Shown here: piece by piece, positions 17,083-33,926 of the stretch
Layout of the letters: each line of letters begins with the position of its first letter
How positions within the stretch are numbered: position 1 is the stretch's first letter
Virus record (IMG/VR): IMGVR_UViG_3300032893_000032
Span: 7,715 to 71,714 of that record
DNA length: 64,000 bases
Reading direction: 5' to 3' (one strand)
Origin: a virus
Made by a program: the position numbers and the translations under genes
The notes under the pieces: generated by a model
Told to the model about the DNA's origin: nothing
Seen by the model: only the letters and a program-made list of their open reading frames with translations
The model's database searches: none

Positions 17083-17907
17083 ATGAACTACATGGGTGGG
17101 AAATTTCGACAGGGGAAGAAGATCGCAGAGGTGGTGGCGAGACTGTCGGCGGGCGGGGGGAGATTGTATTACGAACCGTTCTGCGGGGCAATGGGGTCGG
17201 CTTATCAAGTACTGGACCGCTGTGGCGTGAATTTAGCCGGAAGCCGCCTATCGGATGTATCCTCTCCCTTAATAACAATGTGGACGGCGGTCTTGAACGG
17301 ATGGGAACCTCCTGACCAAGTCACCGAGGAGTTTTATGACTACGTGAAGTTGATCCAAGACCCCGACGACCCTATTACGGCTTTTGTTGGCTTCGGACTC
17401 TCCTTCGGCGGGAAGTATTTCGGAACATTCGCTCGATCCAAGCCCGGAAAGAAGCCGCACGGGCACGACGCGGGGTGCGCGAAGAGGTCGTGTAAGAGAC
17501 GCGCCTCCGTTCTATCAAAACACGGGGCGAAGGTCTATTGCTGTGACTACCGGGAAGTTATAGACTCCGGCCAGATCTTTTACCTTGATCCCCCGTACCA
17601 CCCCGGAAAAGGGAGGAATAAGTGCCACGACTTCGCCGGGGGGTTCGACACCCAGGAGTTCTTCGAGTACGCCCGGATGCTGGTGGCGCTGGGCAACCGA
17701 GTGATAGTGACGGGATTCGATGCCCCAGACGACTGGCGGGTGATCCATTCTTGGGGCGACACGGTAGTCCGCCACTACGCCGGGAAGGGGTCGGATGGGA
17801 CCTGTGAGTCGATCTACGCCCATGTGTCGCAGGTGGAGGACGGGACGTTCGACGCCTACCTGCATACGAAGGCGGAGGGAAAGGAGGCTGTCGCCCGTGC
17901 CCGTTAG
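17083..17907 (+). CDS. D12-class (Dam-like) DNA amino-methyltransferase
   Basis: NYMGGK, EPFCGAMG (SAM-binding) and YLDPPY catalytic motif. Confidence 0.9.
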   Translation: MNYMGGKFRQGKKIAEVVARLSAGGGRLYYEPFCGAMGSAYQVLDRCGVNLAGSRLSDVSSPLITMWTAVLNGWEPPDQVTEEFYDYVKLIQDPDDPITAFVGFGLSFGGKYFGTFARSKPGKKPHGHDAGCAKRSCKRRASVLSKHGAKVYCCDYREVIDSGQIFYLDPPYHPGKGRNKCHDFAGGFDTQEFFEYARMLVALGNRVIVTGFDAPDDWRVIHSWGDTVVRHYAGKGSDGTCESIYAHVSQVEDGTFDAYLHTKAEGKEAVARAR

Positions 17908-20467
17908 CCTGCGCCATTCGAAGGTTGACCTTCCCTCCCCCGTCTGTTTCGGCATTCCCCAGAAGTTCGCCGACTGGCGGGGGATACAGGCGCAGGCTAT
18001 CTCCGCCTCCCTAGCCAGCCAGAAGAGGTTCGTGTTCCAGTCCGCCCCTACTGGGACGGGGAAGAGCCTGATGTACGTAGCCGAAGCCCTGATGACTGGA
18101 CAGAGGACCGTTATCCTGACGTCGACCAAGGGGCTACAATCGCAGCTGGTGGGGGACTTCCAGGAGTCCGGACTGGTAGACATCCGGGGGATGGGGAACT
18201 ATCCATGTAAGGCGGCGGAGGACTTCGGGCTAACGGCTGGGGCTACGTCCCATGCCATCTCGTGTGAAGAGGGGCCGTGCCGCTCGGGACTTAAGTGTTC
18301 GCTAAAAGACTTCGGCTGTTCCTACTACGATGCCTACCGAGTGGCCCAGGGGGCGGGACTGGTGGTTACTAATTACGCCTACTGGATGACGATTAACAAG
18401 TATGGCGAGGGACTGGGGCACTTCGACCTGCTGGTGATGGACGAAGGCCACAATTGTGTTGTAGCGGGGACGGACGTGGGCGGCACCCCCATAGAAAAAA
18501 TAGAGGTGGGGGATTGGGTGCCATCGTGTTGGCGCGGCTGCATAATTTATAGACGTGTTGTACAGACCTTCCGAAGCCGACCAACACACCTATTAAGGCT
18601 GTGGTGCAACGGACGGCCCACAATTTGTACGGAAAATCACCCAGTCCTGACGCACCGGGGATGGGTATCAGCGGGAACACTACGAATTGGCGACCTTATA
18701 AGGAGCACTCAGAATGAAGAGAACCTTGTACCCCAAGAGAGTGGAGACGAAATGTCACTGGTGTCACGGCCCGGCGGTAGTGGAAGGAAGCAGGCGATGC
18801 TGGGAGTGGCGAAAGAGCGGGAGGGCATACTGCTCGGAGACGTGCGCCCAATCCTACCGGAACAAAGTGACAACGGAGCGAGGGCAGCCGTTGCACGTAC
18901 GTCTGTTCCACTCCAAAAGGATCAAAGGGAAGAACAACCCAATGAAGTCGGCGTCTGCGCGACAGAAACTGAGTCGGACGCTAAAAGCAAATGGAGTGAA
19001 GCCGCCAATTCGAGGAGGGTTTGGGAGTCCGACGCCGAAACCGCAACTGATACTAGCCAAAGCGCTGGATTGGCCGTTAGAAGTAGTGGTACCGACCGGA
19101 CCACGAAGGCCGGGGAAACCGACCAACTACAAGATAGACATTGCAAGTGCGGAACACAAAATCGCAGTGGAAGTAGACGGCAAAAGCCACGGGATGTTGG
19201 ATCGTCAACGCGCCGACCGAGTGAAGGAGAAGTTCTTGGCTGGACGCGGCTGGACGGTGTTGAGGTTCTCAAACCAACAAGTGATGGAGAATTTGGAGGA
19301 CTGTGTCCGGGCGGTTATGTCTATAACCTCGAAGTCGAAGATACCCACAACTATATCGCCAACGGCATAGTCATGCACAATAGCCCCGACGAGCTGTCCA
19401 ATTTTCTGGCGGTGGAGATGGAGATGGGGGAACTGGAGACTGTGCTGGGGGACGCGGGGGTAGGGGTAGGAACGAAGCTTGGAGACTGGCAGAAGTGGGC
19501 TGCGGGACACGCCAGCCGATTGGCGGAGAAGATCGACCGGGCGCAGGCGGAAATGGAAGAGGCAAGGGAAAACGGGTCGGGAAGGGTAGGGTACGGACGG
19601 CTGAAGGTCCTTACCCAGTGGAAAAAGGTCAGCGGACGTCTGAAGTCTATCCTGGGAGCGAAAGGGGAGTGGGTGTATGAGAGACAGGGAAGGACGCACA
19701 GGTTCGACCCGGTGTGGCCGGGGGAGTACGCCGAGGGAGCGTTGTTTAGAGGAATTAAGAAAGTGGCTGTCTTCTCTGCCACGCTTAGACCGAAGACGGC
19801 TGAGGTCCTGGGCGTCCGACGAGAGGAAATGGAGTTCCTTGACTGGCCGTCTCCGTTCCCTGTAAGCAGGCGACCTATCTACCACGTCCCGACCGTGCAG
19901 ATGAATCACCGGACGGCGAAGGATGGAGACAGCTTAAGAAGATGGATGACGAGGATAGATCAGATCCTGAGGCAGAGGCAGGACCGGAAGGGGATTGTCC
20001 ACTGCGTAAGCTATGAAAGGAGGAACTACATACTGCAGAACTCGGAATTCGCCGGATCGATGATCAGCCACGACAGCCGGGGAACGAGGCTGGCGGTGGA
20101 GAAGTACAAGAAAGCGGAGGCACCGGCTGTTCTAGTGTCGCCATCGGTGGGTACGGGTTTCGATTTTCCCGGCAGCGAATGTCGCTTTATCATCATTGGG
20201 AAGCTTCCGTACCCGGACCTACGGTCAGAAATAATGAAAGTAAGGAGGAAGCGGGACGGGACGTACTACGACTACTTAGTCGCCCAGAACTTCGTCCAGA
20301 TGGCGGGAAGAGGGATGAGGTCGGAAGACGACTGGTGCGAGGTACTGGTGATAGATGACAATTGCCTGTGGCACGTGTACCGGTACAAGTCGTTCTACCC
20401 CACGTGGTTCATGGACAGCTTCCAACCTAAAAACGCTATTCCTCCCCCTTTAGGGCTAGATACTTGA
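17897..20467 (+). CDS. DinG/XPD-family SF2 helicase with intein
   Basis: GTG start after AAGGAGG; APTGTGKS, Fe-S-type Cys cluster, DEGH, SATL, GFDFPG and QMAGRGMRSEDD. Confidence 0.92.
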   Translation: MPVSLRHSKVDLPSPVCFGIPQKFADWRGIQAQAISASLASQKRFVFQSAPTGTGKSLMYVAEALMTGQRTVILTSTKGLQSQLVGDFQESGLVDIRGMGNYPCKAAEDFGLTAGATSHAISCEEGPCRSGLKCSLKDFGCSYYDAYRVAQGAGLVVTNYAYWMTINKYGEGLGHFDLLVMDEGHNCVVAGTDVGGTPIEKIEVGDWVPSCWRGCIIYRRVVQTFRSRPTHLLRLWCNGRPTICTENHPVLTHRGWVSAGTLRIGDLIRSTQNEENLVPQESGDEMSLVSRPGGSGRKQAMLGVAKEREGILLGDVRPILPEQSDNGARAAVARTSVPLQKDQREEQPNEVGVCATETESDAKSKWSEAANSRRVWESDAETATDTSQSAGLAVRSSGTDRTTKAGETDQLQDRHCKCGTQNRSGSRRQKPRDVGSSTRRPSEGEVLGWTRLDGVEVLKPTSDGEFGGLCPGGYVYNLEVEDTHNYIANGIVMHNSPDELSNFLAVEMEMGELETVLGDAGVGVGTKLGDWQKWAAGHASRLAEKIDRAQAEMEEARENGSGRVGYGRLKVLTQWKKVSGRLKSILGAKGEWVYERQGRTHRFDPVWPGEYAEGALFRGIKKVAVFSATLRPKTAEVLGVRREEMEFLDWPSPFPVSRRPIYHVPTVQMNHRTAKDGDSLRRWMTRIDQILRQRQDRKGIVHCVSYERRNYILQNSEFAGSMISHDSRGTRLAVEKYKKAEAPAVLVSPSVGTGFDFPGSECRFIIIGKLPYPDLRSEIMKVRRKRDGTYYDYLVAQNFVQMAGRGMRSEDDWCEVLVIDDNCLWHVYRYKSFYPTWFMDSFQPKNAIPPPLGLDT
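18455..19381 (+). mobile_element. Intein (309 aa) just after helicase Walker B (DEGHN|S)
   Basis: Starts CVVAGTDV, has block B CTENHP, ends VYNLEVEDTHNYIANGIVMHN followed by Ser. Confidence 0.93.
18714..19370 (+). CDS. Vsr/DUF559-like endonuclease nested in the intein in the +1 frame
   Basis: Own AGGAG RBS at 18701; CHWC..YCSETC Zn finger; NUMOD3-like GKNNPMK; YKIDIA...IAVEVDGKSH...DRVKEKFL..RGWTVLRFSN. Confidence 0.88.
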   Translation: MKRTLYPKRVETKCHWCHGPAVVEGSRRCWEWRKSGRAYCSETCAQSYRNKVTTERGQPLHVRLFHSKRIKGKNNPMKSASARQKLSRTLKANGVKPPIRGGFGSPTPKPQLILAKALDWPLEVVVPTGPRRPGKPTNYKIDIASAEHKIAVEVDGKSHGMLDRQRADRVKEKFLAGRGWTVLRFSNQQVMENLEDCVRAVMSITSKSKIPTTISPTA

Positions 20468-24875: not shown

Positions 24876-25114
24876 ACATCTCCTGTCCCAATTGCCGCGC
24901 CGTCATCATCTCCTCCCTTTCCACCGCCCGCCATCCCTCCCCCGACATCTGGTCGCGGGAAGTAGTCTGTAGCCGCTGCCGGGCGGTATACCGGATAGAG
25001 GTAAATCTGCTAAGAGAAGGGGAGACGAAAGAAGAAAGAGCGGGGAGAAAGGAAAAAGAGCAGGGGAAAGGGGGTAAGCCCGATGAAGTCGATAACGCTG
25101 CTCAGCGATCATGA
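24872..25114 (+). CDS. Zn-ribbon protein
   Basis: CPNC...CSRC; ATGA overlap. Confidence 0.6.
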   Translation: MNISCPNCRAVIISSLSTARHPSPDIWSREVVCSRCRAVYRIEVNLLREGETKEERAGRKEKEQGKGGKPDEVDNAAQRS

Positions 25115-25421
25115 GGCGGATGTGCTGCAGGCCATCCATAGGGAGGCCCAGCGCGCTGTCCTCTTCCACGGGGAAGTTACCGACGACCCCTGCCGCGTGA
25201 TCGCCAACCTGACGAAGGAACTGGGGGAGGCGGCGCAGGAAGTGACGAAGATGACCAGCCGGTCGATGAAGGAGCGGGAGGGGAGGAACGACCCGGAAGA
25301 AAAGATCCTCCCGGTGACGAGGGAGGACAGGCTGGCGAGAATCGCGATGGAGCTGGTACAGGTGGCGGCTTACTGCTACCTGGTGGTAATGAAAATTGAA
25401 CAAGGTGGATACCGGGATTGA
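25083..25421 (+). CDS. mazZ: MazG-like NTP pyrophosphohydrolase (MazZ-like)
   Basis: LTKELGEAAQ...ELVQVAA all-alpha MazG motifs; lies just upstream of purZ. Confidence 0.7.
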   Translation: MKSITLLSDHEADVLQAIHREAQRAVLFHGEVTDDPCRVIANLTKELGEAAQEVTKMTSRSMKEREGRNDPEEKILPVTREDRLARIAMELVQVAAYCYLVVMKIEQGGYRD

Positions 25422-25460: not shown

Positions 25461-26096
25461 ATGACTGGTAAGGTACTTTACGCATGGCTGGCTGCGCTTA
25501 TCGACGGGGAAGGGGCGGTAATGCTGATAGACAAGCGGGGGAGTGGGCACGCGGTCCGTGTTGGTCAATTCCGCCCCACCATCAATGTGTCGAACTCCGA
25601 CTACCGACTGATCCTAGCTCTGATGAAGGAGACAGGGATTCACCGAGTGTACGCCCACAAAAAGGGAAGCCCCAACGGAAAAGTTCGCAATCGATACGTG
25701 TGGTCGTGGCGTCTTGCCAACCGGGACATACGAGAGTGGGGGCCAAAAATTCTTCCGTTTCTGGTTATTAAGCGACGTCAGGTAGAGCTGATATTGGAGT
25801 ACGTAAACTTCAACTATCGGTGGTTGACGCTACGTAAGAACAAAAAGAAAGTTGAGGAGATGAAGCGACGCAAGGTGGAGATCTTCACGGAGATACGGGC
25901 GCTTAACGAACGCGGGATCGACAATCGCCATCTTATTCCAGAAATTAACCGGATTCGTAATGAGTATAATGCCAAATTAAAACAGGAGAGGGGAAACAAG
26001 TCATGGAAAGAGCTAAGGGAACAGGAAACCCGATCACAGTCGTCCAAGGCGGTTTTTGGGGATCGGAGGGGAAGGGCGCAGTTACAGCGTTCCTGA
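25461..26096 (+). CDS. Single-motif LAGLIDADG homing endonuclease
   Basis: WLAALIDGEGAV, INVSNSD..LI and ILPFLVIKRRQ; lower GC than its neighbours. Confidence 0.9.
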   Translation: MTGKVLYAWLAALIDGEGAVMLIDKRGSGHAVRVGQFRPTINVSNSDYRLILALMKETGIHRVYAHKKGSPNGKVRNRYVWSWRLANRDIREWGPKILPFLVIKRRQVELILEYVNFNYRWLTLRKNKKKVEEMKRRKVEIFTEIRALNERGIDNRHLIPEINRIRNEYNAKLKQERGNKSWKELREQETRSQSSKAVFGDRRGRAQLQRS

Positions 26097-27448
26097 CTAA
26101 CAGGGACAAAGTCGACTTCTGCGTACGCGGAGGAACTATCAACGCTGGTCACACGGCCTACTATAAAGGGAAGCCGTATGTATGTCAGCAAATCCCAGTG
26201 GGGTTCACTAACCCCAACACGGCATTGGTAATTGCTCCTGGCGCTTATGTACACCCGTTCGTCCTTGCCAAAGAGATTGAAATGATAAACAAGGCCACAG
26301 GCGAGGATGTCCGTAAGCGCCTATTTATTGATCACCGCTGTGGGCTTCATTTACCCGTTCATACTGACCGGGCAAAAGTAGCAAACAGGCATCACTCAAT
26401 GGGCGCAGTCGGCAAGGGGTGTTCGGAAGCGGTGGTCGACAAGATCCGGAACCGGGGGAGTGGGAAGACGCAGCTGTTTGAACAGTGGCTTCAGGAATTT
26501 AGACTGACGGATAGGGAGGAGAAGTTCGCCGACTGCATCGGGGCTGGAAGGAGACTGACGGACGTCCTCGGTCCGGTGGCTTTCGCCGACACCACGGCCC
26601 TCCTTAACCGGAGCTGGGATGGCGGGGCAAAGATACTGGTGGAAGGGACGCAGGGGACGCTGCTGGATCTTCACCTCGGTCCCTACCCCTACACTACGCA
26701 CAAGCAGACTCAGTGTGGAAACTGGATAGCGGAATGCGGACTATCCCCTAGCCTGCCCTACGAAGTGGTGCTGGTCGTCCGTTCGTACCCCATCCGCGTG
26801 GCGGGGAACTCCGGACCGATGCCTCGGGAGATCTCCTGGGTGGATCTGGCGCGGAGGATCAACGGAAGGCTGGAGGCCCACGGTCTGCCGCCACGGGTAA
26901 GGGAAAGCAGCTTGCGACAGTTCGAATCCGCCTGTCAACATGTCGCCGGGATGTCCGATCCCCCGAGGAACTGGAAAATCGAAAACTGGCCGCAGGAGAT
27001 AAGGGAGAAGAATCCGGAATTCGTCTCGGAACTTCATAAGGCGGCCCTTGAACAGCTGGAGACGGAGGTGGTGGACGACCTAAGGAACCTATTCGAACTG
27101 ACAACGGTAACGAAGAAGCTCCGGAGAATTGCGGAGCTGGACCGGGATACGCTGAAGCGGAGTGTCCAGATGAACCGCCCGGCGTACATTGTCCTAACGT
27201 TTGCCAACTACCTATTCCCTGAGATGTGGGGGTGGGGGCAAGACGAATTCGATGGATTGGACAGGCGGAATGGGGAGTCGTTCGACAATCTCTTCACCTA
27301 CGCCAGCGAGCTGGAGGCGGACACCGGGACGGAGGTAAGGTGGTGCACGCTGGGGCCGGAGGACAAACACTTCGTCGACGTGCTGGGAAGGACGAATGGT
27401 CAGTACCCCATGCATTTCACCGGGACGGAGAATGAGGTAAACGGGTGA
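26003..27448 (+). CDS. purZ: PurZ-family (adenylosuccinate synthetase-like) 2-amino-deoxyadenylosuccinate synthetase
   Basis: GGFWGSEGKG (Ser for PurA Asp13), NAGHT, EGTQG, YPIRVAGNSGP, TTVTKKLRR and LTFANY. Confidence 0.88.
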   Translation: MERAKGTGNPITVVQGGFWGSEGKGAVTAFLTNRDKVDFCVRGGTINAGHTAYYKGKPYVCQQIPVGFTNPNTALVIAPGAYVHPFVLAKEIEMINKATGEDVRKRLFIDHRCGLHLPVHTDRAKVANRHHSMGAVGKGCSEAVVDKIRNRGSGKTQLFEQWLQEFRLTDREEKFADCIGAGRRLTDVLGPVAFADTTALLNRSWDGGAKILVEGTQGTLLDLHLGPYPYTTHKQTQCGNWIAECGLSPSLPYEVVLVVRSYPIRVAGNSGPMPREISWVDLARRINGRLEAHGLPPRVRESSLRQFESACQHVAGMSDPPRNWKIENWPQEIREKNPEFVSELHKAALEQLETEVVDDLRNLFELTTVTKKLRRIAELDRDTLKRSVQMNRPAYIVLTFANYLFPEMWGWGQDEFDGLDRRNGESFDNLFTYASELEADTGTEVRWCTLGPEDKHFVDVLGRTNGQYPMHFTGTENEVNG

Positions 27449-28191
27449 TCACCGTCGACCCCAGGACGGGTTCCGACAGACTCTTCGCCAGACTCCGGCA
27501 GAAGAAGGGCCTACCGGTGGTATCCGGGACGCTGGAGTTCGGCGACGCCTGCTGGCTTGGTCAGGGGCCGGAGGGGAGACCAGTGACCGTGGGGGTTGAG
27601 TACAAGTGCGTCCCAGACGTATTAAGTTGTATCGCCAACGGGAGGTTCGCCGGTCACCAGCTCCCCGGTCTGCTGGCGACCTACGACTTGCCGATTCTGC
27701 TGGTCGAGGGGGATACGAGGGCTAGTTTGAAGGATGGCAGCCTGCAGATTCGCCACCCAGTGAAGAAGTTCTGGTTCGAACCGAAGTCGGGCGGAAGAGG
27801 GTGGATGTACCGGGACCTAGTCCACTGGCTGGCAACGGTTCAGTTTAAAGCCGGGGTACGGGTGGCGAGGACCGGAGATCTGGAGGAAAGCGCGGAATGG
27901 GTGGCTGCCTCCTATTCGTGGTGGAATTCCAAAACATGGGAAGATCACAAGTCCCATTTACATCTGCATTCATCCCTGGACGATCAGGTCAGCATCCTTA
28001 AGCCCACTCTGTTGAGACAGCTGGCAGCTTGTCTCCCCGGCGTCGGCCTGCTAAAATCGGCGGCGGTAGCCAGACACTTCCGTAGCCCATTCGAAATGCT
28101 GATGGCGGACGAGGGGGAGTGGGAAAAGATCGAGGGAATAGGAAAGGGAACGGCGAGGAAGATATGTCAGGCGATGATGAACGGAAAATAG
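27445..28191 (+). CDS. ERCC4/XPF-like structure-specific nuclease with (HhH)2
   Basis: ITVDPR, LEFGD, VEYK..D..S...GR and LLVEG; LPGVG and IEGIGKGTA HhH motifs. Confidence 0.88.
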   Translation: MITVDPRTGSDRLFARLRQKKGLPVVSGTLEFGDACWLGQGPEGRPVTVGVEYKCVPDVLSCIANGRFAGHQLPGLLATYDLPILLVEGDTRASLKDGSLQIRHPVKKFWFEPKSGGRGWMYRDLVHWLATVQFKAGVRVARTGDLEESAEWVAASYSWWNSKTWEDHKSHLHLHSSLDDQVSILKPTLLRQLAACLPGVGLLKSAAVARHFRSPFEMLMADEGEWEKIEGIGKGTARKICQAMMNGK

Positions 28192-28605: not shown

Positions 28606-31449
28606 ATGGTGACGAAGACGCGCAAGAAAGGTAGTCGTCCTGCAACGTCCTTCAACGGACGCGGGCTGCGGACCGTCACCCCGCCCTCTACCCCTCCCGC
28701 AGCCCCCGGAGCCGTCTCCGGTATATCCCGGTTGCTCCACCCCCCCTACCGGCAGGAGGACTGGGTATCGGCGTACGGACCAGAGAAAGCGGCGATTTAT
28801 GTCTTAGGTGAGCGTCCGGGGGAGGACGAATGGCGACGGGGGATTCCCTTTATCGGTCCGTCTGGCCGTGTGCTCTCGGACTGGTTCGAACGGGCCGGAC
28901 TATCGCTCGACTGCGCCCGACGGTGGAACGTGGTAAACGACTACAAGCCGGGGAACCCGGAACCGGCGAAGTGGGAAGTGGAAAGGGACAGGGAGAAAGT
29001 CAAGGAGGACATCGACAGGTCGGGGGCAAGGGTAATTGCGGCGGTGGGGGCGCACGCCATCCGGTGGGTGTTGGGGGAAGGGTACGACTTGGACACGGTG
29101 AACGGGGTGCCGATCTGGTGGACAGAGGGGAGAATCTGTGTCCCGGTTTATCATCCGGCGAACTCCTTCTACCAGATCCATTTGGCGGCGAACGGGCAGG
29201 CTGACGTAAGGACGGTGGCTAGAGTCGTTCGAAGGGAGCAATGGCCGCTCACCGACACCTTCCTCTGTCCGGATTACCAAGAGGCGAAGTGGGGGGAACT
29301 CCACTCCCATATTCTACTTGACGCGGACGTACGCCGGATAGCGATCGATACCGAGGGGAGCCGGAGCGGGCCGTGGTGCCTAACCTACTCCACAGCCGCC
29401 GGAGATGCCCGTCTGGTTAAAGCTGGTAGCCCGGAATTGAAGTGGTTCATAAAGGAGCTGGAGATATTCACCCTGTGCGGTGGGAAGGTTGTTCTCCATA
29501 ACGCGATGTTCGACTTGGGGGTGCTGCGGGCGATGGGGATAGACTTACCATTCGGGTCGGTGATCGATACGATGGTCCGCGCCTACAACCTCTGTCTGGA
29601 GCCGCAGGGGCTGAAGGCTCTCGCCTACCGCCACGCCGGGATGGAGATGTCGAGCTACGAGGAGCTGGTGCACGAGGCCAATCAGGCGCATGCCGTAGAC
29701 TACATCATGCAGGCGGCGTTCGGATGGAACTGGCCGGATTCCGAACCCTACCTCGTGATGGAGAGGAACAAGGAAACGAAGAAGTTCGAACCGAAGGTGA
29801 AGAAGCCGTGGTCCATCCAGAGGTATCTGGACAGGCTGGTGGCGGACAAATGTAAGAATCCGGAGGAAATAGACCTGAGGAAGAGGTGGGAGGGGATTGA
29901 CGTAGAGGTGAGGAGACCGGTGGAAGATGTACTCGGTCCGATGCCCGTGGCGACTCTTGACGACGTTCCCTTTGAGAAGGCCTGCGCCTATGCCAACCGG
30001 GACGCAGATGCGACTCTTCGGATAGACCCGGTGCTCGAGCGAATGCAGGCGGACATGGGGATGCTGACGGTGGACCCCGACCAGCCTAGGGTGTTCGAGA
30101 TCGACATGGGGGCGCTGCCGATGTTCGAACGGATGCAGGCTAACGGGTTCCGGGCGGACAAGGGGCACTTTGTACAGCTGGGGCAGAGGATGGGAAGGGA
30201 GATGGAAAGGCTCCGGGGAGAGATCCACGGGCTGACGGGGGCGGAGATCAATCCGAATTCCCCGGATCAGGTGGCGGAACTGATCTTCGGACAGCTGAAC
30301 CTTCCGGTGGGGAAGCTGACCAAGGGTGGGAAGAGCGGGAAGAAGAAGCCGTCGACGAACGACAAGGTACTGGAGGCGATGAGATTCGTCCACCCGGTGA
30401 TGCCGCTGATCCTGGACTACCGGGAGTGTAGCAAGATTAAGTCCAGCTTCTGCGACCCTTTGTCCCAGCTGCTGGGAAGGGACGGAAGGATAAGGGGGAC
30501 GATAAAGATCACGAGGGTGCCGACTGGCAGACCGTCGATGGTCGACCCCAACCTCCTTGCCCAACCGGTAAGGTCGGAACTGGGGAGGGAGTTAAGGAAG
30601 GGATTCATCGCGGAGGAAGGGTGTGTGCTGGGGGACTGGGACCTGTCGCAGATCGAGATGTGCGTCATGGGGGACCAGTCGATGGACCCGGTGCTGGTAG
30701 ACCTCCTATGTGATCCCAACAAGGACGCGCACTCGGAGACTGCCGCCTTAATCTTCGGATTGCCGCTACACAAGGGGACGAAGAAGGAAAGATACGCAGA
30801 GGTGGACGAGATCCGGCACCGGTATCCGGCGAAACGGGTGGGGTTCGGCGTGATAACGGGGATAACGGGAGTGGGACTGGAAGCGCAGATGGCGCTGGCG
30901 AACGCGACGAAGAACGGACTGCCGCTGGGGCAGGGCGGGGACCCGTGGACCGAGGATGACTGCGATGGGATGATCGAGGAGTGGTTCAAGGTATATCGGG
31001 GAGTAAAACAGTACATGTTGAACTGCCGGGCGGAACTGAGGCAATACGGGTATGTCACCGACCAGTGGGGTCGCGTGAGGTATTTACCGGGGGTCTACTC
31101 AGAAAAGTCGTGGGTGAGGGAAGAGGCGGAGCGGCAGAGCCACAGCCACAAGATCTCGTCCTCGGCCCAGGGGATCATGAAGCTGGCGATGCGGGAGATC
31201 TGGGGATTCATGCTGCAGGAGTGGGGGGACGAGGGGAGAACGCACAAGGTGGGGGACACGGTCTACCCCGGACGGCACGTCGAACCACTGCTATCCATTT
31301 ACGATAGTCTGGTGATGGAACTCGACGATGACCCAGTGTTCAAGGAATATTGGAATTCCGTAATGGTCGGGTGTATGACGCAGACGGTGAAACTGAAAGT
31401 TCCGATCCGCGTAAAGGGAAGCTGGTCGTATAGATGGGGAGGAGACTAG
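28606..31449 (+). CDS. polA: Family A DNA polymerase with N-terminal family-4 UDG-like domain and 3'-5' exonuclease
   Basis: UDG GERPG...PFIGPSG...YHPA; exonuclease IDTE, HNAMFD and YANRDA; polymerase TGR, DLSQIE, R..AK...FG and IYDS. Confidence 0.93.
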   Translation: MVTKTRKKGSRPATSFNGRGLRTVTPPSTPPAAPGAVSGISRLLHPPYRQEDWVSAYGPEKAAIYVLGERPGEDEWRRGIPFIGPSGRVLSDWFERAGLSLDCARRWNVVNDYKPGNPEPAKWEVERDREKVKEDIDRSGARVIAAVGAHAIRWVLGEGYDLDTVNGVPIWWTEGRICVPVYHPANSFYQIHLAANGQADVRTVARVVRREQWPLTDTFLCPDYQEAKWGELHSHILLDADVRRIAIDTEGSRSGPWCLTYSTAAGDARLVKAGSPELKWFIKELEIFTLCGGKVVLHNAMFDLGVLRAMGIDLPFGSVIDTMVRAYNLCLEPQGLKALAYRHAGMEMSSYEELVHEANQAHAVDYIMQAAFGWNWPDSEPYLVMERNKETKKFEPKVKKPWSIQRYLDRLVADKCKNPEEIDLRKRWEGIDVEVRRPVEDVLGPMPVATLDDVPFEKACAYANRDADATLRIDPVLERMQADMGMLTVDPDQPRVFEIDMGALPMFERMQANGFRADKGHFVQLGQRMGREMERLRGEIHGLTGAEINPNSPDQVAELIFGQLNLPVGKLTKGGKSGKKKPSTNDKVLEAMRFVHPVMPLILDYRECSKIKSSFCDPLSQLLGRDGRIRGTIKITRVPTGRPSMVDPNLLAQPVRSELGRELRKGFIAEEGCVLGDWDLSQIEMCVMGDQSMDPVLVDLLCDPNKDAHSETAALIFGLPLHKGTKKERYAEVDEIRHRYPAKRVGFGVITGITGVGLEAQMALANATKNGLPLGQGGDPWTEDDCDGMIEEWFKVYRGVKQYMLNCRAELRQYGYVTDQWGRVRYLPGVYSEKSWVREEAERQSHSHKISSSAQGIMKLAMREIWGFMLQEWGDEGRTHKVGDTVYPGRHVEPLLSIYDSLVMELDDDPVFKEYWNSVMVGCMTQTVKLKVPIRVKGSWSYRWGGD

Positions 31450-32837: not shown

Positions 32838-32953
32838 GCCTGATCTGGGCGCAGCAGGACTTCGAACGGCGTCGGCGAGGATGGAGGCTGTGGAGCAGGC
32901 AGCCGTGGAGCTGGGGAATGGTGAAACACCTGTGGAGGCTGATATGGGAATGA
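32834..32953 (+). CDS. Trp/Arg-rich 39-aa peptide
   Basis: ATGA overlaps at both ends; MSLIWAQQDFERRRRGWRLWSRQPWSWGMVKHLWRLIWE. Confidence 0.5.
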   Translation: MSLIWAQQDFERRRRGWRLWSRQPWSWGMVKHLWRLIWE

Positions 32954-33492
32954 CGATTGACCTCCTCGACCTCAGCCACGTACCCCGATGGACGACGCAC
33001 CCCGTGGCCCGTCCGCAGTCCGTCGCCGAACACTCCTACCGCGTAGCCATCCTTGTTAACCGTCTAGCTGGGTTGTTCAACGAACAGCCGGACAGGTTCA
33101 CCACTCTGGACCTAGACATCACCATGCGGGCCGTGTGGTGGGCCTTGTTACACGATGGCCCGGAGGTGAAGACCGGGGACCTGCCGCATCCGGCCAAGCG
33201 CATGATCGGGGCTGGAGAGTGGGAAAGGATGGAGGAGGAAGCCTGCCCCTGGTACCGATGGTTCAAACCGGACCCGAACGGGATTGTCTACCGGATGGTC
33301 CAGCTGGCGGACGTGGTGGAGGCCCTGACCTGGATGTCGAGGTATGGGCAGGGGTGCAGGGACAGGTTCAACGGGGAAGATGTGGTAGGGCAACTGAGAG
33401 CGAGGATTGGGAAGGCGGCGGAAGAGGCGGACAAGGTATTCCCTGGACTAGGGGGAGCGGTGAAAGAACTGGTAAAGGAGACATGTGAATGA
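32950..33492 (+). CDS. datZ: HD-domain dNTP/dNMP phosphohydrolase (DatZ/YfbR-like)
   Basis: RW....QSVAEHSYRV, LLHD.PE..TGDLP.PAK and V.LAD..EA; co-occurs with purZ. Confidence 0.82.
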   Translation: MTIDLLDLSHVPRWTTHPVARPQSVAEHSYRVAILVNRLAGLFNEQPDRFTTLDLDITMRAVWWALLHDGPEVKTGDLPHPAKRMIGAGEWERMEEEACPWYRWFKPDPNGIVYRMVQLADVVEALTWMSRYGQGCRDRFNGEDVVGQLRARIGKAAEEADKVFPGLGGAVKELVKETCE

Positions 33493-33926
33493 AGTTCGAT
33501 CTAGACTTTCCTGACTCCATCTACAACATCGAACCGGAGACGTGGAACCGGTTCGCCGAGGCCCTTCAGGGCATGCTCAACCGGATGGCGATGAGCTACC
33601 ACAAGTACCATTCCTCCCGCCCCCTGTACGATTCCTGCCCGGAAGAGACCAAGATGGTATTCACCCGGCAGAGAATGGCGATGTACGACGGGGGAGGGCC
33701 GGGGGAGAACTTGTGCGACTGCGGGGTGGGTATAGGAGTTCCAATCCGCCGTCATCGATTAAACTGCTTTCTGTCTCGGGTTAAACTTAGTACCGGAAAT
33801 GTGGAAAACTGTCTGGACGCAGCCAACGGTCTGGTATTAGAGATGTTGTTCCCCACCCACCCCAAGGCACACTTCCGGTCACAGTCGAGTGAGGAGTCTC
33901 CGGGGATCACCTATAAGGAGGATTAG
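33489..33926 (+). CDS. Putative all-alpha nucleotide pyrophosphohydrolase-like protein
   Basis: M.NRMAMSYHKY, TGN.E...DAAN...E..P.HPKAHF.S..S.ESPG, a pattern seen in a recurrent phage family. Confidence 0.55.
   Translation: MKFDLDFPDSIYNIEPETWNRFAEALQGMLNRMAMSYHKYHSSRPLYDSCPEETKMVFTRQRMAMYDGGGPGENLCDCGVGIGVPIRRHRLNCFLSRVKLSTGNVENCLDAANGLVLEMLFPTHPKAHFRSQSSEESPGITYKED

What the first reader, a model, noticed from the sequence alone, without database searches (positions are those of the whole stretch)
30500..31330. PolA with minor-groove-sensing residues systematically replaced
Hand alignment to Klenow: motif B RYPAKRVGFGVITG (N761G, Y766T); NLLAQP for NLQNIP (Q677L, N678A); ERQSHSHKISSSAQG for ERAAINAPMQGTAAD (N845S, Q849S); motif C IYDS for VHDE (H881Y, E883S). 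The catalytic Asp residues, R668, R754, K758 and F762 are retained. Established: Q849, N845, H881 and Y766 shape the nascent-pair pocket and read the minor groove, where the 2-amino group of Z lies. Inference: an independently evolved Z-adapted polymerase, or one that tolerates a bulkier minor-groove modification than Z.
Basis: partly seen in the sequence, partly recalled or inferred. Interest (0 to 1): 0.82.

Follow-up and report, generated by a model that had tools for sequence, protein, structure and literature searches.

The report
Z-phage polymerase lacking O-helix tyrosine
This uncultured phage's only detectable DNA polymerase, encoded just downstream of the gene for making 2-aminoadenine (Z) DNA precursors, has lost a near-invariant active-site tyrosine at the position that both known Z-specific polymerase groups also changed, so it probably marks a third Z-linked polymerase lineage, though no preference for Z has been measured.

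Summary
ORF 28606-31449 (+) encodes a 947-aa UDG-like / 3'-5' exonuclease / family A polymerase fusion. Aligned to real E. coli Pol I, it reads Q677L, N678A, N761G, Y766T, N845S, Q849S, H881Y and E883S. R668, D705, E710, R754, K758, F762 and D882 are kept.

The enzyme belongs to a large metagenome-only UDG-PolA family. Across 115 IMG/VR relatives plus the window, only position 766 tracks PurZ:
- 22 of 24 PurZ-bearing records have Thr, Asn or Phe there.
- 17 of 19 PurZ-lacking records that are at least 75% complete keep Tyr; the other 2 have Met.
- All 15 Thr-type loci with informative context have PurZ just upstream.

The other "minor-groove" substitutions also occur in complete relatives without PurZ, so they are not Z-specific. 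I found no support for a modification bulkier than Z.

Published work reports Tyr-to-Phe at this position as the only change shared by both DpoZ clades. This is therefore a new variant of a known kind, probably a third DpoZ-like lineage. Phylogenetically independent contrasts are few, and selectivity is untested. This scan has noted the same pattern before on other genomes.

The parts
28606..31449 (+). Gene for the UDG-like / 3'-5' exonuclease / family A DNA polymerase fusion (947 aa; ATG at 28606, five bases after the TAG of the upstream ORF)
   Evidence: ORF list and translation. Start context. Pfam PF03167 + PF01612 + PF00476. AlphaFold2 model with pLDDT 90.1 and pTM 0.87. Foldseek top match is the Klenow fragment 1kfs, TM 0.86 on the target.
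28774..29172 (+). N-terminal family-4 UDG-like domain (residues 57-189)
   Evidence: Pfam UDG E 5.9e-16. PDB 4zbx family-4 UDG E 2.6e-14, with GERPGE, PFIG, NVV and HPA aligned to the UDG motifs.
29341..30009 (+). 3'-5' exonuclease domain, with Exo I (AIDTEG, 29341-29358), Exo II (HNAMFDL, 29497-29517) and Exo III (YANRDAD, 29989-30009)
   Evidence: Pfam DNA_pol_A_exo1. Motif positions. D248, E250, D303, Y462 and D466 are invariant in the 50-sequence family alignment. The motif names are recalled.
30172..31440 (+). Polymerase domain (residues 523-945)
   Evidence: Pfam DNA_pol_A E 1.4e-69. Taq and Klenow hits at E 2e-50 and 6e-45.
30550..30567 (+). NLLAQP (E. coli NLQNIP): Q677L, N678A, I679Q
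   Evidence: NL[LM]A is family-wide and also occurs in complete PurZ-lacking relatives.
30634..30669 (+). Motif A, DWDLSQIEMCVM: D705 and E710 kept, Y706L, R712C
30820..30861 (+). Motif B / helix O, RYPAKRVGFGVITG: R754, K758 and F762 kept, N761G, Y766T (Thr751 codon at 30856-30858)
   Evidence: In the model, helix 735-750 ends just before T751. Column 766 is the best PurZ discriminator.
31129..31173 (+). Motif 6, ERQSHSHKISSSAQG: R841 kept, I844H, N845S, A846H, Q849S
   Evidence: SHSH accompanies Thr766 in 112 of 114 Thr-type family proteins. Ser849 is in 43 of 246 family proteins.
31294..31314 (+). Motif C, SIYDSLV: H881Y, D882 kept, E883S
   Evidence: Tyr881 is in 26 of 246 family proteins. 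E883S is also present in the phiVC8 and Pumancara DpoZ.
26003..27448 (+). PurZ-type adenylosuccinate synthetase homologue (GSEGKG: Ser at the PurA Asp13 position)
   Evidence: Pfam PF00709 E 6.6e-49. Sequence and alignment to archaeal PurA GDEGKG. Best GenBank phage matches are PurZ phages.
27445..28191 (+). ERCC4-type nuclease gene lying between purZ and the polymerase
   Evidence: Pfam ERCC4 E 9.5e-12.
32881..33492 (+). HD / YfbR-like phosphohydrolase (DatZ-like candidate dATPase)
   Evidence: Pfam PF12917 E 3.8e-12 and PF13023 E 5.6e-11. These are the domains that the preprint 10.1101/2025.10.22.683976 names for DatZ (passages seen).

Best explanation
ORF 28606-31449 encodes the only DNA polymerase I could detect in this 71.7-kb uncultured phage record, so it is presumably the replicase. 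It is a three-domain enzyme: a family-4-UDG-like domain, an apparently intact 3'-5' exonuclease and a Klenow-type polymerase. It belongs to a large, metagenome-only UDG-PolA family. Within that family it sits in a 'Thr-type' clade whose helix O ends GFGVITG, so the near-invariant Tyr (E. coli Y766, 'position B4') is Thr, and whose motif 6 reads RQSHSHKI. In this clade the gene always lies just downstream of purZ.

Working model: PurZ plus host enzymes make dZTP, and the HD/DatZ-like hydrolase lowers dATP. The polymerase then copies a 2-aminoadenine (Z) genome. Loss of the Tyr that stacks on the terminal or templating base at the end of helix O is its adaptation to Z:T pairs. The most likely mechanism is a shift in the balance between polymerisation and backtracking/editing, so that the weaker A:T nascent pair is extended less well. 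That is the mechanism proposed for phiVC8 DpoZ, and it does not involve reading the 2-amino group directly.

Shown here: the domain architecture, the residue identities, the fold, and the PurZ co-occurrence and synteny. Inferred: that Z is in the DNA, that the enzyme prefers dZTP, and how it would do so. The additional Q849S, H881Y and E883S changes are a feature of this enzyme's nearest relatives only, and I cannot assign them a role.
For: Architecture and fold:
- Pfam gives UDG + exo + DNA_pol_A.
- The AlphaFold2 model has pLDDT 90.1, and Foldseek's best match is the Klenow fragment.

Only polymerase found in the held record:
- One PF00476 match, and no Prim-Pol or PolB match.

Z genes:
- PurZ with GSEGKG lies 1.2 kb upstream.
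- An HD/YfbR-like gene lies 1.4 kb downstream.

Size of the family:
- 111 of the 120 listed homologues carry UDG + PolA domains.
- 3,034 representative proteins match at E <= 1e-30.

PurZ census over whole IMG/VR records:
- PurZ+ is 24 records, counting the window. Position 766 is Asn in 13, Thr in 8, Phe in 1 and Tyr in 2.
- PurZ- records at least 75% complete number 19. Position 766 is Tyr in 17 and Met in 2.
- An unbiased scan of all alignment columns ranks column 766 first (Fisher 1.1e-7, not corrected for phylogeny).

Synteny:
- All 15 distinct Thr-type loci with informative context have PurZ. Eight come from IMG/VR. Seven are new metagenome loci with PurZ on the same strand 0.7-2.6 kb upstream.
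- All 17 whole PurA-like proteins from relatives' loci carry Ser at the Asp13 position. The 18th, L090, is cut by its contig start.

More than one origin:
- An AU test rejects a single clade for all Thr/Asn/Phe rows (p 1e-54) and for the Asn rows (p 0.003).

Published parallel:
- I confirmed Phe in the phiVC8 and Pumancara DpoZ.
- The preprint 10.1101/2025.10.22.683976 (passages seen) found the UDG Pfam domain associated with physically dZ-enriched contigs and left the connection undefined.
Against: - Independent contrasts are few. On well-supported branches only 3 independent PurZ+/PurZ- pairs exist. Position 766 goes the same way in 1-2 of them and never the other way, so the sign test cannot reach significance. 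A single origin of the Thr type is not rejected.
- Two PurZ+ records keep Tyr: L027 (YQ) and L145 (YW, a complete record).
- Losing the Tyr is not exclusive to PurZ phages. Met occurs in 2 complete PurZ- records, L068 and L158. Phe at the aligned position occurs in 6 of 32 generic PolA loci with no PurZ, one of them on a complete 117.5-kb record.
- Asn-Gly types L056 (60% complete), L225 and L269 show no PurZ in the sequence held.
- Both DpoZ papers judge this position unlikely to explain Z-versus-A choice. They note that Tyr-to-Phe in Taq is tolerated, and that cyanophage S-2L achieves full substitution without a selective polymerase (PMC8599892 section 13; PMC10201439 passages).
- No experiment shows Z in this phage's DNA or any selectivity of this enzyme.
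- No MazZ (PF04447) was found, although that search's control was uninformative.
Confidence: 0.6

Rival explanations
1. Lineage history or relaxed constraint. The substitutions are inherited quirks of a divergent polymerase clade. With DatZ and PurZ reshaping the dNTP pool, the polymerase needs no selectivity, and the Tyr was simply free to drift. On this reading the enzyme replicates the phage genome but does not discriminate A from Z.
For: Seven of the eight listed substitutions occur in complete PurZ-lacking relatives. A single origin of the Thr type is not rejected. Only 3 well-supported independent contrasts exist. Met or Phe at this position occurs without PurZ. S-2L needs no selective polymerase, and the DpoZ authors doubt that this position matters (PMC10201439 and PMC8599892, passages and section 13).
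Against: Tyr766 is kept in 17 of 19 PurZ-lacking near-complete relatives and in 26 of 32 generic PolAs, so it is normally under strong constraint. It is lost to three different residues in PurZ-linked lineages of this family, which cannot be one clade. It is also lost in both published DpoZ clades. Thr is invariant across the 34 Thr-type sequences aligned (T751), which looks like selection rather than drift.
Confidence: 0.27
2. The pocket is remodelled (N845S, Q849S, H881Y, Y766T) to accept a purine with a minor-groove group bulkier than the 2-amino group of Z, or some other hypermodified base.
For: The full eight-residue combination is rare: 3 of 246 family proteins, namely P0002, P0003 and a fragment identical to the window. 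Distant UDG-PolA relatives in GenBank sit beside 7-deazaguanine synthesis genes and beside a gene annotated 'pyrimidine hmase synthase' (presumably a hydroxymethylase), so the wider family does serve phages with modified DNA. Several neighbouring ORFs have no assignment.
Against: No additional base-modifying enzyme was recognised in the replication block. The recognisable genes are PurZ, an HD hydrolase, ThyX, NADAR, a D12 methyltransferase, helicases and nucleases. Each of these substitutions also occurs singly in relatives without PurZ. R668 is retained.
Confidence: 0.06
3. The helix-O change serves the fused UDG-like domain rather than Z, for example to coordinate primer-end shuttling among the pol, exo and UDG sites, or to handle uracil.
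For: All members carry the UDG-like domain. PMC10201439 (passages seen) predicts that this domain faces the pol and exo sites. The UDG motif residues are retained here.
Against: UDG-PolA relatives without PurZ keep Tyr766 (17 of 19), so the fusion alone does not call for its loss. The non-UDG DpoZ clades also lost the Tyr.
Confidence: 0.05

Closest known systems
DpoZ, phiVC8-like subfamily (PolA cluster #18 of PMC10201439; PDB 7PBK)
   Same: A family A polymerase with a proofreading domain, encoded next to purZ and a dATPase gene. It has lost the helix-O Tyr (position B4) and has Ser at E883 in motif C (PMC8599892 section 13).
   Different: No GenBank phage polymerase exceeds 31% identity to this one, and phiVC8 DpoZ falls outside the UDG-PolA family in the tree. 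This enzyme has an N-terminal UDG-like domain, keeps Phe762 (Leu in phiVC8) and has Thr rather than Phe at 766. Its Z preference is unmeasured.
DpoZ, Wayne-like subfamily (PolA cluster #19; represented here by the Arthrobacter phage Pumancara polymerase)
   Same: PurZ-adjacent PolA. The Tyr at 766 is lost, Phe762 is kept and motif C reads HDS.
   Different: It is a separate long branch in the tree, has no UDG domain and has Phe rather than Thr at 766. Its genomes use dUTPase-type helpers instead of DatZ (PMC12884076 and the preprint, passages seen).
UDG-fused family A polymerases (N4-like cluster #17, and unclustered UDG-PolAs such as SPO1)
   Same: The same three-domain layout: family-4 UDG-like, exo, pol (PMC10201439 passages).
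   Different: According to the paper, N4-like enzymes have lost the UDG catalytic residues and are not linked to DNA modification. Here the UDG motif residues are retained and the genome carries PurZ. I did not align N4 or SPO1 sequences. The five GenBank UDG-PolA records I did check have no PurZ, and the two that could be aligned keep Tyr766.
Engineered Klenow Y766S/A and Bst Y714S mutants
   Same: A small polar residue replaces the helix-O Tyr. The review PMC10520511 (passages seen) states that Y766A/S lowers fidelity. A Bst Y714S structure with a G:T mismatch is among the structural matches (3hpo).
   Different: Those are laboratory mutator variants of repair polymerases. Here Thr is the conserved natural state of a presumed replicase, so compensating changes are expected. 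SHSH in motif 6 co-varies with Thr in 112 of 114 proteins.

Membership tests
DpoZ (Z-specific family A polymerase) | Family A polymerase domain with catalytic Asp residues and a 3'-5' exonuclease domain | tested here: met
   Pfam PF00476 E 1.4e-69 and PF01612. D705, D882, R754 and K758 are kept. The exo motif residues are invariant in the family alignment.
DpoZ (Z-specific family A polymerase) | Encoded in a phage genome that carries PurZ (a PurA homologue with Ser at Asp13), close to it | tested here: met
   PurZ at 26003-27448 with GSEGKG. All 15 informative Thr-type relatives share this synteny.
DpoZ (Z-specific family A polymerase) | Belongs to one of the two published sequence clusters (phiVC8-like or Wayne-like) | tested here: not met
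   Best identity to any GenBank phage polymerase is under 31%. The phiVC8 and Pumancara DpoZ lie outside the UDG-PolA family. 7PBK is not among the 50 structural matches listed.
DpoZ (Z-specific family A polymerase) | Phe in place of the helix-O Tyr (position B4), the one substitution shared by both clades | tested here: not met
   The Tyr is lost, but to Thr rather than Phe. Related PurZ-linked clades have Asn, and one record has Phe.
DpoZ (Z-specific family A polymerase) | Measured preference for dZTP over dATP | not testable with these tools
   This needs enzyme assays.
UDG-PolA fusion polymerases | N-terminal family-4 UDG-like domain fused to exo and pol domains | tested here: met
   Pfam PF03167 E 5.9e-16. 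PDB family-4 UDG 4zbx E 2.6e-14. 111 of the 120 listed homologues share the architecture.
N4-like PolA (cluster #17) | UDG catalytic residues replaced or deleted, and clustering with the N4 polymerase | tested here: inconclusive
   GERPGE, PFIG, NVV and HPA align with the UDG motifs, so the residues are not lost. This differs from the paper's description of N4-like enzymes. The N4 sequence itself was not compared.

The most novel reading that the evidence does not exclude
In this enzyme's small sub-clade, four pocket residues are changed together: Y766T, N845S, Q849S and H881Y. That combination is seen in 3 of 246 family proteins. It might create a different selection mechanism from the backtracking proposed for known DpoZ. 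The enzyme might read the purine 2-amino group directly, or accept a purine with a larger N2 substituent than Z. That would make it a polymerase for a not-yet-described DNA chemistry.
Probability: 0.08. Interest if true: 0.85.

Novelty: new variant of a known kind. Interest (0 to 1): 0.6.

Why it matters
What makes a polymerase prefer Z over A is an open question. The two published DpoZ clades share one substitution, Tyr to Phe at the end of helix O, and their authors doubted that it matters. If PurZ-linked lineages of an unrelated UDG-PolA family have lost the same Tyr independently, to Thr and to Asn, that position becomes the prime candidate and a natural mutagenesis series (Tyr, Phe, Thr, Asn). 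It could also serve as a sequence marker for Z genomes in metagenomes, and as a handle for engineering polymerases that write ZTGC DNA. The result may also explain an unexplained association in a 2025 preprint between the UDG Pfam domain and physically dZ-enriched contigs: here the UDG domain is part of the polymerase of many PurZ phages.

Tried and rejected
- A close-relative scan of IMG/VR with the single protein found nothing. An alignment-based scan was needed.
- GenBank phages hold no close relative. Best identity is under 31%. Five GenBank UDG-PolA records, including Microcystis phage Mel-JY34, Brevundimonas phage StAshley and Vibrio phage ABTNL-3, have no PurZ and are only 20-33% identical over the aligned pieces. 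No cultured representative was found.
- The second IMG/VR scan used unspecific patterns and returned many generic PolAs. I used 32 of them as an outside control.
- The phylogenetically independent-pairs test was run and is underpowered (3 pairs). I therefore do not claim statistical significance beyond the raw association.
- MazZ: no Pfam hit for ORFs 25083-25421 or 33489-33926. PF04447 was not found in the record, but the control rang nowhere, so this is uninformative.
- PHROGs gave nothing useful for 8 of 10 neighbouring ORFs.
- Rows dropped from the counts: 70 PurZ-lacking records under 75% complete, which cannot show absence, and 3 records with sub-threshold PF00709 matches (L048, L060, L061).
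- 11 Thr-type metagenome loci with less than 1.4 kb upstream of the polymerase gene were uninformative.
- The MAFFT alignments behind the residue tables were made in fast mode. Distant rows, such as motif 6 of phiVC8 DpoZ, may be misaligned.
- Supplements could not be seen. Supplementary Fig. S7B of the preprint (sequences of phiDpoZ1 and phiDpoZ2) may already show UDG-PolA-type enzymes. Supplementary Fig. S2 of PMC10201439 covers the unclustered UDG-PolAs.
- My statement that a UDG-PolA DpoZ lineage is not in print rests on two searches only.
Full report
**What is there.** The window is bases 7715-71714 of a 71.7-kb IMG/VR virus record that is estimated 76% complete. The finding lies in ORF 28402/28606-31449 (+). 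I take ATG 28606 as the start. It lies five bases after the TAG of the upstream ORF and follows a purine-rich stretch. The 947-aa product (P0001) has three Pfam domains:
- UDG, residues 57-189, E 5.9e-16
- DNA_pol_A_exo1, E 6.6e-07
- DNA_pol_A, residues 523-945, E 1.4e-69

An AlphaFold2 model built on a 50-sequence family alignment is confident, with pLDDT 90.1 and pTM 0.87. Its best structural match is the Klenow fragment (1kfs, TM 0.86 on the target). In the held record I found one PolA match and no Prim-Pol or PolB.

**Check of the observation.** I fetched E. coli polA, the phiVC8 DpoZ and a Wayne-like DpoZ from Arthrobacter phage Pumancara, and aligned them with P0001. With true E. coli numbering, P0001 reads Q677L, N678A, N761G, Y766T, N845S, Q849S, H881Y and E883S. 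R668, D705, E710, R754, K758, F762 and D882 are kept. HMMER against Taq Pol I pairs the same residues. All motifs lie inside 30500-31330.

**Genomic setting.**
- A PurA homologue lies at 26003-27448 (PF00709, E 6.6e-49). It has GSEGKG where archaeal PurA has GDEGKG. This Asp-to-Ser change is what the preprint 10.1101/2025.10.22.683976 uses to define PurZ (passage seen).
- Its best GenBank phage matches are known PurZ phages.
- An ERCC4 nuclease gene separates it from the polymerase gene.
- An HD/YfbR-like (DatZ-type) gene lies at 32881-33492.
- ThyX, NADAR, a D12 methyltransferase and two helicases lie upstream.
- I could not confirm a MazZ.

**The family.**
- No GenBank phage polymerase exceeds 31% identity.
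- The large protein collection holds a big family of the same architecture: 111 of the 120 listed hits carry UDG + PolA domains, at 37-74% identity.
- The representative library has 3,034 matches at E <= 1e-30.
- In 246 family proteins, position 766 is Thr in 114, Tyr in 81, Met in 25, Asn in 22 and Phe in 2.
- Thr goes with Ser845 in 112 of 114.
- Ser849 occurs in 43 proteins and Tyr881 in 26.
- The query's full eight-residue combination occurs only in P0002, P0003 and an identical fragment.

I fetched 80 + 35 UDG-PolA loci from IMG/VR. I then searched their whole records for PF00709.
- 23 records plus the window have a PurA-like gene above the curated cut-off.
- All 17 whole PurA-like proteins I extracted carry Ser at the Asp13 position. 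An 18th (L090) is cut by its contig start.
- Among the 24 PurZ+ records, position 766 is Asn 13, Thr 8, Phe 1 and Tyr 2.
- Among the 19 PurZ-lacking records at least 75% complete, it is Tyr 17 and Met 2.
- I left out 70 PurZ-lacking fragments and 3 records with sub-threshold matches.
- A scan of every alignment column ranks column 766 first (Fisher 1.1e-7, uncorrected for relatedness). Next come 759, 768, 639, 677 and 678.

A metagenome scan with a Thr-type alignment and a local PurZ HMM added synteny evidence. All 10 Thr-type loci with at least 1.4 kb upstream have PurZ on the same strand 0.7-2.6 kb upstream. Seven of these are new, giving 15 of 15 distinct informative Thr-type loci. Of 10 Tyr-type loci with at least 3 kb upstream, only 1 has PurZ in the flank.

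**The other substitutions.** They do not track PurZ. In the 19 PurZ-lacking near-complete records:
- Q677 is replaced in 9.
- N678 is Ala in 6.
- N761 is Gly in 11.
- N845 is Ser in 3.
- Q849 is Thr in 1.
- H881 is Tyr in 1.
- E883 is Ser in 2.

Of the 24 PurZ+ records (one is cut before these motifs), 20 keep Q849, 21 keep H881 and 14 keep N845. A review lists N678 as a backbone contact, and R668 and Q849 as the minor-groove hydrogen-bond partners (PMC10520511, passages seen). R668 is retained here. G already places a 2-amino group in the minor groove, so accepting Z needs no new sensors (established chemistry). The "systematic minor-groove" reading is therefore not supported, apart from position 766.

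**How independent are the events?**
- A quick IQ-TREE of the 43 informative rows, with motif B columns blanked, needs 6 changes of PurZ state. At least 3 are forced by well-supported branches.
- Only 3 independent pairs are available. Position 766 moves with PurZ in 1-2 of them and never against it. A sign test cannot reach significance.
- AU tests reject one clade for all Thr/Asn/Phe rows (p 1e-54) and for the Asn rows (p 0.003). They do not reject one clade for the Thr rows.
- So the Tyr was lost at least twice in this family, once to Thr and once or more to Asn, in addition to the two published Tyr-to-Phe cases.

**Counter-examples.**
- L027 and L145 have PurZ and keep Tyr. In both, the neighbouring Gly767 is replaced, by Gln and Trp respectively.
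- Met at 766 occurs in two complete PurZ-lacking records.
- Phe at the aligned position occurs in 6 of 32 generic PolA loci, and none of the 32 has PurZ.

**Literature.**
[quoted passage not shown] It also says that specificity probably reflects base-pair stability and backtracking rather than direct reading of the 2-amino group.
- PMC10201439 (passages seen) calls the position B4. It describes UDG-PolAs (N4-like cluster #17 and unclustered ones), and asks whether Z specificity has arisen in other PolA subfamilies.
- PMC12884076 (2026, passages seen) still recognises two DpoZ groups.
- The preprint 10.1101/2025.10.22.683976 (passages seen) finds the UDG Pfam domain associated with dZ-enriched contigs, with the connection described as "undefined". 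It validates two new DpoZ homologues whose sequences are in a supplementary figure I could not see.
- My searches for DpoZ with 2-aminoadenine and for PurZ with uracil-DNA glycosylase found no description of a UDG-fused, PurZ-linked polymerase clade.
- Earlier notes of this scan report the same pattern on other genomes. They are unchecked AI notes, and I treat them as leads only.

**Verdict.** The residues are as described. The enzyme is best read as the replicase of a PurZ phage and as a member of a new, UDG-fused, PurZ-linked PolA lineage. Its loss of the helix-O Tyr parallels both known DpoZ clades. Whether it prefers Z, and whether residue 751 causes that, is untested. The extra Q849S/H881Y/E883S changes are peculiar to its nearest relatives and remain unexplained.

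Noticed in passing
window 28744-29250: The UDG-like domain keeps the residues that align with the family-4 UDG motifs (GERPGE, PFIG, NVV, HPA). However, the Cys of the aligned NVVKC stretch is Asp here. The Thr-type clade consensus also lacks the N-terminal CxxC seen in the Asn-type clade consensus. The domain may therefore be a cluster-free but possibly active glycosylase. That these Cys residues bind an Fe-S cluster is recalled, not tested.
   Followed up: partly
window 30634-30669: Motif A reads DWDLSQIEMCVM. The Arg aligned with E. coli R712 is Cys in the window, in P0002 and in P0003, but Arg in the other 23 PurZ+ and all 19 PurZ- records.
   Followed up: no
L008, L066, L070, L068, L158 (IMG/VR loci): A separate branch of the UDG-PolA family has Met at position 766, Ala at 845 in most, and PKHS in place of PVRS in most. 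It shows no PurZ even in a complete 51-kb record, and accounts for 25 of 246 family proteins. It might serve another DNA chemistry.
   Followed up: no
L274 (Brevundimonas phage StAshley) and L275 (MW202455.1): Distant UDG-PolA genes in GenBank lie directly beside 7-deazaguanine synthesis genes (QueC/D/E-type), and beside a gene annotated 'pyrimidine hmase synthase' plus a thymidylate synthase. Both keep Tyr766 and lack PurZ.
   Followed up: partly
L140, L138 (IMG/VR loci): Some relatives' polymerase genes carry large in-frame insertions inside the TGR, motif B or motif 6 regions. They look like inteins but were not tested.
   Followed up: no
window 17795-20467: A DEAD/Helicase_C_2 (DinG-like) helicase gene is interrupted by an intein-type domain (Intein_splicing E 2e-08, below Pfam's cut-off).
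   Followed up: no
window 26003-27448; loci L082-L100: PurZ of the Thr-type clade is long (open frames of 421-474 aa; 481 aa here) and 39-48% identical to the window's. PurZ of the Asn-type clade is shorter (open frames mostly 360-438 aa) and only 25-31% identical. All whole copies carry Ser at the Asp13 position.
   Followed up: partly
L056, L225, L269: Polymerases with Asn-Gly at positions 766-767 (GFGIINGITG type) show no PurZ. This holds for a 49-kb record that is 60% complete, and for up to 10 kb fetched on either side in two metagenome contigs. They are either exceptions or incomplete records.
   Followed up: partly
L167, L171, L172, L185, L189, L192: A generic (non-UDG) PolA type reads NFNFAFEGG in motif B, giving Phe at the position aligned with Y766. 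It has no PurZ, including on a complete 117.5-kb record.
   Followed up: partly
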